64,000 bases of DNA. It comes from Ruditapes philippinarum. Taxonomy: Eukaryota. Under the pieces are notes generated by a model, which worked only from the letters and a program-made list of their open reading frames with translations, had not been told where the DNA came from and made no database searches. The position numbers and the translations under genes were made by a program. Shown here one piece after another: positions 40,201 through 44,393 of this stretch; the stretch's first letter is position 1, and each line of letters begins with the position of its first letter. The DNA lies in the NCBI RefSeq assembly GCF_026571515.1, contig NW_026852746.1, positions 62,001 to 126,000 of the forward strand. Reading direction: 5' to 3'.

Positions 40201-43200
40201 CACTGTGCAATAAATGATACAACGACCCGAAGTAAAAGGTTCTTGTAATGACATAAACCATTGAAATGTAAAGACTTGAAGTAAATGATACAGTGACTTG
40301 GTTTCTACACTATTGTCATCAGATATGACAGAGCAGATTTTATAGAGTAAGTAATATTTCTAACCATCGAATTGCCCACATGTTGCAGAACGATTTAATT
40401 TTTGTTCTTCTAATGAATAACTTCATAAAGGGCGTTATGAACTTATGACATTCGTTGGAAGCAAACAATAAAGGAAAGATAGTGGAATGGTCATGTAATA
40501 TCTTTTAATTTCAGATGGTACCAAAGTCTATAGCAAAGAAACTAAGAAGCCAATGTTCGTATGTCGAATCCGACTACTTTAAAAGTGCGTCGATTCTGTT
40601 TGCGGATATCTTCGGTTTTAACCAAATCTCAATGAAACTTTCACCCATCGAGCTTGTAACCTTCTTGCACACGTTGTACCTGGCGTTAGACGAGAGAATA
40701 GACAACTATGATGTTTATAAAGTGGAGACAATAAATGACTGTTACATGGTAGCGTCAGGTAGGTTTTGTTTAAAGACCAATCACGACATACATACACATG
40801 TTTAATACCGGTTATATTATGGCGTTATGTGATAGCGTTATGTGTGTCTCAGTGTAATATAAATATATATGCTTGTGTATGTGGTTGGTCTTTAATGCGC
40901 TGGTTTATATTCACTTAAAGCCCCAGTGCGATATCCATTCAAACGTCTGTGCCCTGATTGTTAGAAATTGGCATCAGATTGTTAGTTTAAAGACCCAACT
41001 GGACCTTAAACATTGTGTTTTCACTATTGTTATAACATAGTTATAGGTAGGTAAATTAGATATACAAGAATTTTTTCAAACACATTTATTACTTTTGTCC
41101 ACTTTTGCGATGACCAAGAACAAATATTTCTTTAATTATGCCCAAAACTATAAATAATAGAATTTGATATTTGCGTTTTCGTTGCATGGATATTCTTTAA
41201 AAAAAAATAATTTAATTTTTTAATACTTTTTATTTAATTACCCTTGATTTAATGATAAAAATGAATGAATTTTTAATTAAAATAAAAAATGTTAGAACAA
41301 ATTCCGTTCCATTAAATTTTTCATGCATGCGACTTTTCACGTCTGCTACTGGAATACCATTTACTTATGATATCTCGAGAAATTGCAGATACTTAAATTG
41401 TTTTGTTTTTTTATTCTTCATATTAGGTATTCCTATTAGAAATGGCGAGAATCATGTGGCGGAAACAGCGACCTTGGCACTTGACCTCCTACACGTCATG
41501 AATCACATGACCTTTCCGTTCAATATAAATAGAAATGTCAATATCAGGATTGGAATTCATACGGGTATTTTGATTGGTCGATATTTGAGCCATTTTCATT
41601 TGGAAATATATTACAAACAGTTTCATTGGTTCCCTAGAATGACTGAACGATATATCAATGAATGTTTATTTTAGTTCTTTCATTTTCCTTCCTTAAAAAG
41701 ACTAAATGTGAATGTATTTCTTTTAGTAAAAATGGTAAAAGAGTATTATTTGAGTCATCTTACGCTAAAAGAACGATATTCAGTTCGGAAACTATAAACT
41801 ATATCAATGTTAAAAGATAGAACACACTGTTATTGTTTCTTGCTTCATAAACAATGCACAATCTGAACATAATTTCACAAGAGAATGCTATCTTTATAAA
41901 ATACTAGCAACTGTGACTTTTAACATAGCAAATAAAATAATAAAAAGCTAAATTTAAAAACCGTTTCTTATTTGCAAATTACTCGTTATGGCCAGGTCTT
42001 GACAAAATGTGGGACTTATTAACACTTTGATGTAGTTTATTAACATGTTAATTAAAATAAATGTTTCAGGTGCTTGTATGGCAGGGATTGTCGGAACAAT
42101 GATGTTGAAGTATTGTTTATTCGGACCTACTGTATATATTGCAAGTAGAATGAAATCTAGTGGACTCCGTGAGTTGTTGTCATATAGTATTTTAATTGAG
42201 CATTTCTTGTTTTATTTCGAATCGGCTTCACTTGTTTTGATCTTTTTTCAAGTGATTTAGCGTCAGCTGATTTAGCGTCAATTCTCTTTAAAGGTTGTAT
42301 GTCAGTTATTTGTAGCAAAACGAATACATCATATTTCTAGTCTAGAAAAGGCTTGCAACCAAACATGAACTTCATTGTTTAAACAACTAGATCCGCCAAA
42401 TTGTGATAAAAGACAAGGAATCTTGTCGTCACGAAATTCTTATTTTTGAGCAATGTATGTAATGTTAGTACCGCTAGCTAGTCCGTCTGGTTTGTCCGTG
42501 TTCATATTGACACAATCATTACAAAGACAAAAGCTCTTCAGCAACATATGATATCAATTGATGGGTGACAATCGTTGTCTTGCATTCCAGTCATTACGCT
42601 TGCTTTGCCTTTTTTGTCGTTTTATAACGTGTAAATGATAACTATCACCGAAAAGAATTTTGATTTACCGACACGTATCGACCAATAACAGCTTTATAAA
42701 ACAAAAGTTCTGTAATATAATTATGTTGGTATCATAAGTTGTCAAATTTCAAGGAATGACGATGTTCCAGTGTAGTCCAGAGTCAATTTGTCTTTTTTCT
42801 AAAGATATATACAATTTATTATCATGTATACTTTCAGCAAATAAAATTCACGTAAGCGACCAAATGTTTAGTAGCCTGATGAAATGCGGAAAGTTCAAAA
42901 TGAGGATACGTGGTACTATTGAAGTTTCGGTAAAACATCCTGTTTGTTTTTTAACAAGTTGCTTTCTAAAGGTTTTACTCTTCGACACATGTTTGTTGAA
43001 CATTAAATTGTGTTTGTGACCTTGATTGTCAGAAAAGGGCATGCTTTTTCTTACTGATAAAGAAATACTTGTAGGAGTACCTAGCTACGCAGTACTTGAA
43101 TTTCTTCAGTGTCTCTAAAACGGTTAAAAGGCTTGAAAATTTTGTAACACGGCTTTTAGTTTTTAAGCTACTTATCCTCACCATCTTCGTCAGTATTTAT

Positions 43201-44393
43201 AACCTTGATGATAGTAATATTAGTTTTAGCTAATAAAAAAGAACATACCAGCAGTTTGTAATTAATTGTTTGAATTCAACATTCTTGTTTGTTTTTCATT
43301 ATACGAGTATGTAATGGTACCGATCAGGTTAATTGTTTTCTTGGTGATTGATAACCGCGTAAGTATCTGAACACAAGGTTTCTAGGGTATAGCCCTCCTA
43401 CATTTTCAATCATGTTTATACAAATGGCATCTGCTCTTGTTAGTCTGAAAAACGGATTAAGTTGTGTTTAAATCAAACGAAATTTACTATAAAGCTAACC
43501 TCTTTTAGTCTATGCCTTTCAAGATAAAAACCAAATGGTAGAAAGAATCAAATGTTATGTTACACTTTTCAATTTACTAACCGGATGTCACCCTGTACTG
43601 ATTTTAGCCAACTATAAAGATGACGACGTACTGGGTTTTAGACAAGAACGAATTTGACAGTGGAAATTTAGATCCTACAGAACGAAGCTCTATTGACGAG
43701 AATATAACAGGAAATCAACGTATGTCGTCTTACTTTGAGCGAAAAAGAAATTCCGTGCAGAGCATTGCTTCAGGTTTGTGTTCTTTATTTTAATTATGGT
43801 TCATTATAGAATCATTCGTTAAAAGAAAAGGTGGTTAAGGGGGTGAAGCCTTCCCAAGAACCTTTAGACCATTTGATTTTTTTTTCTGAGCCCGCCAACA
43901 CCACAAGAAACAGGGGTGATTGTTATTTGTTTAAACGTAAGAAACAACCAAGCCAAAAATGCCTTAAAATTGTTTTTTTAAAAGAAGATACTAACAAGAA
44001 AAATGTATAGAATCTACATTACAATGTGGTTATTTTCGCAGTTCAACGTATGTGTGAAATATGCATCCCTGGTCAATACAACGATTATAAAAGTAACAAT
44101 AGAAAATTGCAACTGACCTTCAAATTGTATTGCAACTTGCATGTTTTCACAACATGGAAATTGATGTTAACTGTTAATAGAGTGATAGTTGAAGTTTCAC
44201 CTTTTGTAAGTTTGCTTTTTTAAGGATTGATCTATGATTTCTTTAGGCAAATACATGTACCACTAGGTGTTATTGCATTATATTTTATTTCTTAATTTCA
44301 GAATCCAGCGATGATAACAAAGGTTTGCCTCCCTCCCTTTTGAAAATGCCGGCTAATGAATGGAAAGAAGAAGAAATATTTGAAAAATGCTGA
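25271..44393 (+). CDS. NIT-domain-containing transmembrane guanylyl cyclase (NIT-GC), 15 coding exons, 688 aa
   Basis: Exons with GT-AG ends and matching phases: 25271-25284, 26435-26526, 28739-28893, 30538-30712, 34005-34143, 34567-34715, 37069-37240, 39007-39178, 39649-39816, 40515-40758, 41427-41564, 42070-42168, 42838-42929, 43608-43773, 44302-44393. They sum to 2067 nt and form an open frame. Protein order: TM1 ([21 protein letters not shown]); NIT motifs [38 protein letters not shown]2 ([20 protein letters not shown]); coiled coil [14 protein letters not shown]; cyclase motifs [38 protein letters not shown]. The first two exons are less certain. Confidence 0.92.
25541..25809. mobile_element. 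MITE with imperfect TIRs in NIT-GC intron 1
   Basis: acggtgtcctgttagggcaatc...acacacatcactcgaaacaa vs ttgtttcgaattatgtgtgt...gatggccctaacgagacaccata. Confidence 0.65.
27170..28420. repeat. Degenerate AT-rich minisatellite (~70-90-bp units) in NIT-GC intron 2
   Basis: Recurring ttttcttatcattaactgaattataagtaac...acgttaca cores, e.g. at 27475, 27720, 27890, 28116. Confidence 0.7.
29771..29964. mobile_element. Foldback MITE family A, 5'-truncated copy
   Basis: gcgaccagcatggatc...gatccatgctggtcgcaaacccattatgttggttttgtcgtgacgcggctca. Confidence 0.85.
32123..32359. mobile_element. Foldback MITE family A (~237 bp, ~100-bp inverted arms)
   Basis: tgagccgcg...agcatggatcc...ctgatcaggatccatgctgttcgct / cgaacagcatggatcctgatcag...cggctca. 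Confidence 0.9.
33200..33854. mobile_element. Two adjacent Kolobok-like MITEs (33200-33485, 33490-33854) sharing one TTAA
   Basis: ttaa|aggcccatc...atgtct|ttaa|aggcacattat...aaatgcgcct|ttaa. Confidence 0.75.
35469..35811. mobile_element. Kolobok-like MITE
   Basis: ttaa|aggcacatta ... taatgtgcct|ttaa. Confidence 0.75.
36044..36280. mobile_element. Foldback MITE family A, near-intact copy
   Basis: Long inverted arms tgagccgcgtcatgacaaaaccaacata... / ...tatgttggttttgtcgtgacgcggctca. Confidence 0.92.
36703..36932. repeat. ~21-bp ctcgtggccacgac minisatellite plus TIR end (half copy of the element at 61685-62743)
   Basis: About nine units followed by ataaataaaaacacacacgtgtcacctttgtgcc. Confidence 0.9.

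What the first reader, a model, noticed from the sequence alone, without database searches (positions are those of the whole stretch)
40515..43640. NIT-GC cyclase keeps only half an active site: obligate heterodimer partner or pseudo-cyclase?
Seen: both metal-binding Asp residues are present (FADIFGF, ETINDCY), as are the guanine-specifying Glu and Cys. However, the canonical PRYCLFGDTVNTASRMES reads [18 protein letters not shown] (catalytic Asn->Tyr, D->P, E->K), and the phosphate-binding KGKG motif reads SPTI. Known: class III cyclases build their active sites from two protomers, and the sGC alpha subunit and adenylyl cyclase C1 domain supply the Asp pair while lacking the Asn-motif residues. 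Inference: the intact 15-exon frame argues against a pseudogene. This paralog may be an alpha-like subunit that is active only with another NIT-GC, or a dominant-negative modulator. I know of no description of such a division of labour among NIT-GCs.
Basis: partly seen in the sequence, partly recalled or inferred. Interest (0 to 1): 0.75.

Follow-up and report, generated by a model that had tools for sequence, protein, structure and literature searches.

The report
Clam receptor cyclase with complementary twin
A clam gene for a nitrate/nitric-oxide-sensor-type guanylate cyclase keeps only one half of the enzyme's catalytic residues while a related gene of the same clam keeps only the other half, so the two likely work as a pair, and such half-enzymes turn up again and again in this animal receptor family.

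Summary
Observation confirmed. The window holds an intact, spliced, expressed 15-exon NIT-domain guanylate cyclase (688 aa, identical to a Ruditapes philippinarum RefSeq protein). Of the eight class III active-site positions it keeps all three alpha-side ones (Asp443, Asp487, Arg534) but lacks the beta-side Asn (Tyr562) and Lys (Ser603). Both losses are shared by 4 of 4 clam orthologs and appear in RNA assemblies of three studies; polymorphism shows purifying selection. A same-species paralog, its probable sister, shows the mirror image (Asp1 to Gly, Arg4 to Gln, beta side intact) in 3 of 3 named species. Family-wide, 16 of 23 multiply degenerate NIT-GCs lose one side only (5.6 expected). Best reading: an alpha-type subunit of a heterodimeric receptor cyclase, convergent with sGC and ODR-1/DAF-11 (0.5; 0.67 with any partner). 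Main doubt: the whole mollusc clade carries Gly-to-Asn and Glu-to-Lys changes that elsewhere go with beta-type forms, so a dead modulator remains possible (0.27). Binding, co-expression and activity are untested.

The parts
25271..44393 (+). Whole gene, 15 coding exons (25271-25284, 26435-26526, 28739-28893, 30538-30712, 34005-34143, 34567-34715, 37069-37240, 39007-39178, 39649-39816, 40515-40758, 41427-41564, 42070-42168, 42838-42929, 43608-43773, 44302-44393), 688 aa NIT-domain guanylate cyclase
   Evidence: junctions of exons 8-15 in RNA contigs
28739..28893 (+). Exon 3 with first predicted transmembrane helix (about aa 51-75)
   Evidence: hydropathy; helix in model
30538..39178 (+). Exons 4-8: NIT domain (aa 101-342), arginines R109 and R231 conserved
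   Evidence: Pfam PF08376 70.1 bits vs cut-off 24.9; NasR 4akk Z 14.3, rmsd 2.4, 128 aligned
39649..39816 (+). Exon 9: second transmembrane helix (about aa 348-380, begins in exon 8) and signalling helix
40515..43640 (+). Exons 10-14: class III cyclase domain (aa 431-613)
   Evidence: Pfam PF00211 177 bits
40605..40607 (+). Asp443, position 1 (alpha side), kept
40725..40739 (+). Glu483 (position 2, beta side, kept), Asn486 (clade-wide, replaces the Gly before the second Asp), Asp487 (position 3, alpha side, kept)
41546..41560 (+). Arg534 (position 4, alpha side, kept) and His538 (alpha-type state; Asn in the beta and intact paralogs)
42114..42155 (+). Cys555 (position 5, kept), Pro559, Tyr562 (position 6, Asn lost), Arg566 (position 7, kept), Lys568 (clade-wide)
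42927..43616 (+). Ser603|Pro604-Thr605-Ile606 across the exon 13/14 junction: position 8 Lys and its Gly-Lys-Gly loop lost, loop length kept
   Evidence: hairpin kept in model

Best explanation
This gene encodes a membrane NIT-domain guanylate cyclase that keeps the alpha-side catalytic residues and lacks two beta-side ones, and it likely works as the alpha-type subunit of a heterodimer with the mirror-image paralog (P0009, LOC132716182). Shown: domain order, intact spliced transcript, loss of Asn6 and Lys8 in 4 of 4 orthologs, loss of Asp1 and Arg4 in the paralog, purifying selection. From established class III chemistry: a homodimer of either protein cannot assemble a full site, whereas alpha Asp443/Asp487/Arg534 plus the partner's Glu/Cys/Asn/Arg/Lys would give exactly one. 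Inferred: after duplication of an intact imparidentian NIT-GC the two copies lost complementary halves; NO, nitrite or nitrate at the extracellular NIT domains would turn the helices and close the single site; the second pocket would be a pseudo-site.
For: Eight-position scheme from PMC3591389. Alpha clade P0001, P0134, P0135, P0005 all D,D,R kept and N,K lost. Beta clade P0009, P0137, P0010 all D1-to-G, R4-to-Q, with E,C,N,R kept (K in 2 of 3; the Mercenaria model ends before it); in 6 further unnamed beta-type fragments D1 is G, S or N at 82-99% identity, i.e. free to vary. Alpha+beta are sisters in the best trees: 85/86 without the cyclase, 91/91 with catalytic columns dropped. Alpha and beta co-occur in 3 of 4 named species; beta-type contigs L004/L005 share an assembly with Mya-like alpha and intact contigs. 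Polymorphism aa 413-612: 8 synonymous, 1 nonsynonymous, p 2.5e-5. His538 is the AC5-C1 state, is kept by 11 of 11 alpha-like versus 4 of 8 beta-like representatives, and inside the mollusc clade occurs in 3 of 4 alpha-like lineages and 0 of 22 other rows. One-sided loss family-wide: 16 of 23 (5.6 expected); 6 of 10 merged lineages (3.0 expected, p 0.03).
Against: No co-expression, binding or activity data. N486 and K568 are beta-type states: alpha-like representatives keep Gly 11 of 11 and Glu 10 of 11, beta-like 4 of 8 and 3 of 8. The 6 nearest non-mollusc relatives of the mollusc clade are all beta-like, and an older alpha clade with Gly, His and Glu intact exists in Mya and Mercenaria and could be the real partner of the beta forms. 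AU tests do not reject beta+intact (p 0.17 and 0.14), and the cyclase-only tree puts alpha outside beta+intact+beta2 (80/89). Complementarity of the focal pair alone has chance 0.077; a segment-level Fisher test was not significant (p 0.51). No named Mya beta ortholog was found, and the Mya alpha cyclase is only 60-63% identical to the others. Alpha lies on a different chromosome-length contig from its paralogs in Mercenaria, Mactra and Mya.
Confidence: 0.5

Rival explanations
1. Catalytically dead pseudo-cyclase: the mollusc clade is beta-leaning (Gly-to-Asn, Glu-to-Lys), so losing Asn6 and Lys8 leaves no usable half; the protein would act as a ligand-sensing modulator or dominant-negative partner of active NIT-GCs.
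For: N486 and K568 states go with beta-like forms elsewhere; nearest non-mollusc relatives all beta-like; NIT domain far more conserved than the cyclase against Mya (90% vs 63%); inactive heterodimers are reported among insect sGCs (PMC3591389 introduction; a reference title in PMC1435932).
Against: 13 mollusc-clade rows from limpets to clams keep all eight residues together with the same Asn/Lys, so these changes seem tolerated; D1, D3, R4 are kept in 4 of 4 orthologs while D1 drifts freely in the beta paralog; His538 appears on alpha-like branches only.
Confidence: 0.27
2. Alpha-type half-site subunit whose main partner is not P0009 but the intact paralog (P0038) or the second beta-like clade (P0056, P0052, P0065), or several of them, tuning output by combination.
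For: Any paralog with an intact beta side completes the site; beta2 has D1-to-S and R4-to-L/K; no named Mya beta ortholog; sGC catalytic interfaces are promiscuous (PMC3591389 abstract); Mytilus alpha-like P0051 is sister to an intact gene.
Against: TM2+helix identity alpha-beta 70-73% versus alpha-intact 53-60% and alpha-beta2 33-45%; alpha+intact rejected in one AU test (p 0.024) though not in the other (0.108); no beta2 gene was seen for Ruditapes among the rows listed.
Confidence: 0.17
3. Active homodimer with an altered site (Tyr562 and Arg566 replacing Asn and Lys), possibly weak or with another nucleotide.
For: Six of eight positions kept, including Arg566, Glu483, Cys555.
Against: sGC alpha or beta homodimers, which lack one side, are inactive (PMC3591389); position 6 varies Y/F and the loop is SPTI/SPTL/SSQL among orthologs.
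Confidence: 0.04
4. Assembly error, wrong splice model or decaying pseudogene.
For: Raw-read runs X21 and X23 gave low depth and no joints.
Against: Spliced contigs in three studies, four orthologs with the same losses, 8:1 synonymous excess; no KGKG-coding frame in intron 13.
Confidence: 0.01

Closest known systems
Animal NIT-GCs (Moroz 2020, PMC7400543; Platynereis NIT-GC1, bioRxiv 10.1101/2023.08.02.551600)
   Same: TM-NIT-TM-helix-cyclase architecture; Pfam PF08376 and PF00211 above cut-off
   Different: NIT-GC1 makes cGMP when expressed alone in COS-7 cells; this protein lacks Asn6 and Lys8. The passages read describe no half-site forms ('heterodimer' 0 times in the preprint).
Mammalian soluble guanylate cyclase alpha1/beta1 (PMC3591389)
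   Same: Split of the eight positions: D,D,R from one subunit, E,C,N,R,K from the other; one site and one pseudo-site
   Different: Membrane-bound, NIT sensor instead of H-NOX/PAS; closest solved cyclase is NPR-A, not sGC; arose by a clam-lineage duplication, so convergent
C. elegans ODR-1/DAF-11 receptor guanylyl cyclases (PMC5225109)
   Same: Membrane receptor cyclases described as an obligate heterodimer, each supplying catalytic residues to one site
   Different: Single-pass receptors with kinase-homology domain acting downstream of GPCRs; no NIT domain; supported by genetics, which is lacking here
Adenylyl cyclase C1/C2 (AC5, PDB 8sl3)
   Same: C1 keeps the Asp pair, Arg and His and lacks Asn/Arg; C2 lacks Asp1 and has Asn at the His538 position
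   Different: Both halves in one chain; adenine specificity

Membership tests
NIT-GC | NIT domain PF08376 between two transmembrane helices | tested here: met
   70.1 bits vs 24.9; hydropathy; NasR Z 14.3
NIT-GC | C-terminal cyclase PF00211 | tested here: met
   177 bits
NIT-GC | Two conserved ligand-site arginines in the NIT domain | tested here: inconclusive
   R109 and R231 conserved in 17 of 17 rows shown; not mapped residue by residue onto NasR
NIT-GC | NO-donor-dependent cGMP synthesis | not testable with these tools
   shown only for Platynereis NIT-GC1
Self-sufficient homodimeric receptor GC (NPR-A type) | All eight active-site positions in one chain | tested here: not met
   6 of 8; Tyr562 and Ser603
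sGC alpha subunit (membership) | Soluble, H-NOX/PAS N-terminus | tested here: not met
   only the last 42 positions of HNOBA match; two TM helices
alpha-type half-site subunit (works like) | Positions 1, 3, 4 kept; beta-side catalytic residues lost | tested here: met
   4 of 4 orthologs
alpha-type half-site subunit (works like) | Auxiliary alpha-type states Gly, His, Glu | tested here: inconclusive
   His met; Gly and Glu not met, but shared with intact paralogs
Obligate heterodimeric GC | Complementary partner gene in the same genome | tested here: met
   P0009 in Ruditapes; 3 of 4 named species
Obligate heterodimeric GC | Co-expression in the same cells | not testable with these tools
   no DNA of the Ruditapes partner gene was held to lay reads on
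Obligate heterodimeric GC | Physical binding of the two subunits | not tested
   complex prediction not run: cyclase domains would pass by likeness
Obligate heterodimeric GC | Activity only on co-expression | not testable with these tools
   needs assay
Pseudogene | Broken frame, no transcript or neutral drift | tested here: not met

The most novel reading that the evidence does not exclude
Animal NIT-GCs are a combinatorial family of alpha/beta heterodimeric NO/nitrite receptors in which the sGC-type split evolved many times (at least 13 alpha-type and 9 beta-type label changes on the tree), and this clam gene is an alpha subunit re-evolved from inside a beta-leaning lineage, a reversal of subunit role marked by a regained His.
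Probability: 0.4. Interest if true: 0.78.

Novelty: new variant of a known kind. Interest (0 to 1): 0.62.

Why it matters
NIT-GCs are a recently found, heme-motif-free route for NO/nitrite sensing in invertebrates, with one member tested. If many are half-enzymes, single-gene assays will miss them, gene counts overstate the number of receptors, and pairing becomes a layer of signal control. The clam trio (alpha, beta, intact; 77-80% identical in the NIT domain) is a ready natural experiment on how a homodimeric enzyme becomes an obligate heterodimer, replaying the origin of the sGC alpha/beta and AC C1/C2 splits, and can be tested with an existing cell assay.

Tried and rejected
No whole genome held, so the partner gene could not be searched in this assembly. 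No second cyclase gene in the window (tblastn; its query was out of frame after aa 573, corrected). A skipped exon or other acceptor giving KGKG: none in intron 13, and RNA uses the modelled joint. Runs X1, X2 gave mostly unspliced low-depth pieces (X2 one joint), X21 no joints, X23 one read: uninformative. Cross-species dN/dS for the cyclase could not be computed (no ortholog DNA); for exons 5-9 against L007, pN 0.07 with saturated synonymous sites over 260 codons. Segment-level asymmetry test not significant. Sequence search of the NIT part against PDB found nothing. The AlphaFold model is weak in the cyclase (mean pLDDT 63) and was used only for fold and register. Complex prediction was not run because any two cyclase domains would pass by likeness. 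A lineage-collapsed, rate-preserving permutation version of the family-wide test was not obtained, so the p-value stays an upper bound on strength. Platynereis NIT-GC1 residues could not be seen (eLife version not held; preprint supplements closed), so whether an enzyme with the Asn/Lys states is active is unknown. Morton 2005 not held. Searches returned nothing relevant. Earlier findings: none.
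Full report
1. Observation. The stretch 40515-43640 holds exons 10-14 of a plus-strand gene of 15 GT-AG exons (25271-44393) that translates to 688 aa without a stop. A search with exon 10 returned a 688-aa protein at 100% identity, RefSeq XP_060563891.1 of Ruditapes philippinarum, named 'guanylate cyclase alpha-like' (P0001). 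Domain order: TM (about aa 51-75), NIT (101-342, 70.1 bits), TM (about 348-380), helix, cyclase (431-613, 177 bits). The model matches NasR (Z 14.3) and class III cyclases (Z up to 15.2).

2. Register. PMC3591389 (passages and introduction read) lists eight positions: D486, D530, R574 from alpha; E473, C541, N548, R552, K593 from beta; homodimers of either catalytic domain are inactive. Alignment to NPR-A is ungapped through the motifs, exon 12 maps C555, Y562, R566 on C541, N548, R552, and D443 starts on D486. The protein therefore keeps D443, D487, R534, E483, C555, R566 and lacks Asn6 (Tyr562) and Lys8 (Ser603, loop SPTI).

3. Real and selected. Of 7 runs laid, three from different studies (X3, X12, X13) hold spliced contigs with the modelled joints; X3 covers all 7 joints of exons 8-15. 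X12 shows 0 differences in exons 12 and 13; X3 and X13 have one unlisted difference in exon 12, which I infer lies near an end since central differences are listed. The other four runs were uninformative. Of 17 listed exonic differences 15 are synonymous; in aa 413-612, 8 of 9, p 2.5e-5, or 1e-4 if the unlisted one is nonsynonymous; one search hid 81 further rows. Orthologs in Mercenaria (P0134), Mactra (P0135) and Mya (P0005) lack the same two residues (Y,Y,Y,F; SPTI, SPTI, SPTL, SSQL) and keep D,D,R; cyclase identity is 95, 84 and 63%. P559 is venerid-only. K568 and N486 are shared by the whole mollusc clade.

4. The mirror-image paralog. P0009 (LOC132716182, same species), P0137 (Mercenaria) and P0010 (Mactra) have Asp1 to Gly and Arg4 to Gln, with E, C, N, R kept and KGKG in 2 of 3 (the Mercenaria model ends before it). 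In 7 unnamed fragments 82-99% identical to it (one, P0007, at 97%), position 1 is G four times, S twice and N once. A third paralog keeps all eight (P0038, P0271, P0016, P0139; for P0271 position 1 was not read). Without cyclase columns alpha and beta are sisters at 85/86, alternatives not rejected (AU 0.108, 0.172); with nearly the whole protein minus 13 motif columns 91/91, alpha+intact rejected (0.024), beta+intact not (0.142); the cyclase alone places alpha outside the rest at 80/89. No named Mya beta was found (only the best 120 of 243 and of 567 were listed), but beta-type contigs L004 and L005 come from the same metagenome assembly as a Mya-like alpha (L007) and a Mya-like intact gene (L001); more than one bivalve may be in it. 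The focal complementarity alone has chance 0.077 and a segment-level test gave p 0.51.

5. Family-wide pattern. Among 73 of 87 aligned proteins with all positions readable, merged by hand into 10 multiply degenerate lineages, 6 lose one side only (3.0 expected, p 0.03). Of 135 new representatives at 50% identity, 76 had both domains readable: 43 intact, 18 beta-side loss only (7 of these Lys8 alone, some probably truncated models), 8 alpha-side loss only, 7 both; of 23 with two or more losses 16 are one-sided against 5.6 expected (p 2e-7). That null treats positions as equal and rows as independent, two rows overlap earlier clades, and conservative changes count as losses, so it overstates the case. 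On a FastTree of 110 rows (the 7 single-Lys8 rows and near-duplicates left out; the scallop row P0081 labelled 'both' because its orthologs lost Arg4) starred branches force at least 13 changes of the alpha label and 9 of the beta label. Ten named examples span sea urchin, hemichordate, nemerteans, an annelid and gastropods. Clams carry two further clades: an older alpha type (P0104, P0105, with Mytilus, oyster and a nemertean member) and a second beta type (P0056, P0052, P0065).

6. The main doubt. Among new representatives alpha-like rows keep the Gly before Asp3 in 11 of 11, His in 11 of 11 and the Glu after Arg7 in 10 of 11; beta-like rows in 4, 4 and 3 of 8 (Fisher 0.018, 0.018, 0.041). 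The window protein has Asn, His, Lys: two beta-type states and one alpha-type. The six nearest non-mollusc relatives of its clade are all beta-like. So the clade may be beta-leaning and this protein doubly crippled. Against that, 13 rows of the clade from limpets to clams keep all eight residues with the same Asn and Lys, Asp1 drifts at once where it is released, and His occurs in 3 of 4 alpha-like lineages of the clade (Elysia P0077, Mytilus P0051, this one) and in 0 of 22 other rows; AC5 has His in C1 and Asn in C2 at that place. No enzyme with the Asn/Lys states is known to me to have been assayed.

7. Mechanism. Shown: anatomy, residue states, conservation, existence of the partner. From established chemistry: one complete site in an alpha+beta dimer, none in either homodimer. 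Inferred: the two are co-expressed and bind (TM2+helix identity 70-73% to beta, 53-60% to intact); NO, nitrite or nitrate at the NIT domains activates the pair, by analogy with Platynereis NIT-GC1. Odds: partner P0009 0.5, other partner 0.17, dead modulator 0.27, active homodimer 0.04, artefact 0.01.

8. Literature. NIT-GCs: PMC7400543 (passages; 'heterodimer' occurs once, not among the passages shown) and bioRxiv 10.1101/2023.08.02.551600 (passages and one section; 'heterodimer' 0 times). Obligate heterodimeric receptor cyclases are known in nematodes (PMC5225109, passages); PMC1435932 (passages) and PMC11412693 (passages) added little. Searches listed no paper on half-site NIT-GCs; subscription journals, the eLife version and preprint supplements were not visible and may bear on this. 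Verdict: a true NIT-GC that works, most likely, like an sGC alpha subunit without being one; new variant of a known kind; interest 0.62.

Noticed in passing
window 12-5368 and 10370-16640: Tandem duplication of roughly 10-11 kb at 85-88% identity, each copy with a minus-strand single-exon ORF with one TM-like segment and low-complexity tail (14376-16196, 606 aa; the first copy appears split over 3605-4642 and 3148-3483). No Pfam family above cut-off.
   Followed up: partly
window 46747-53515, minus strand: Exons of a phytanoyl-CoA dioxygenase (PhyH)-like gene, convergent with the cyclase gene.
   Followed up: partly
window 29771-29969, 32110-32364, 36037-36280, 54878-55062; 36697-36949, 61679-61904, 62520-62760: Two families of palindromic MITE-like repeats, several inside the cyclase gene's introns.
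   Followed up: no
window 20331-20487, 23244-23505, 37497-37632, 55776-55925: Four assembly gaps; the third lies in intron 7 and RefSeq's model needs no exon there.
   Followed up: partly
P0283 and P0303 (Tubulanus polymorphus): An alpha-like and a beta-like NIT-GC on contigs of the same length with locus numbers 11 apart, possibly neighbours; Mercenaria older-alpha, beta and intact genes likewise share a contig length and close numbers. Positions not checked.
   Followed up: no
window aa 420 (exon 10, about 40536-40538): Lys in all 4 alpha orthologs where beta has Glu and 10 of 11 other rows shown have Asp or Glu, at the end of the signalling helix; could favour heterodimers.
   Followed up: no
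P0136 (LOC132730381): A second Ruditapes RefSeq model of 141 aa matching the C-terminus of this protein on a 21-kb contig, probably a haplotig copy.
   Followed up: no
P0076, P0080, P0081 (scallops): NIT-GCs that have lost even the guanine-specifying Glu and Cys, likely true pseudo-cyclases in the same clade.
   Followed up: no
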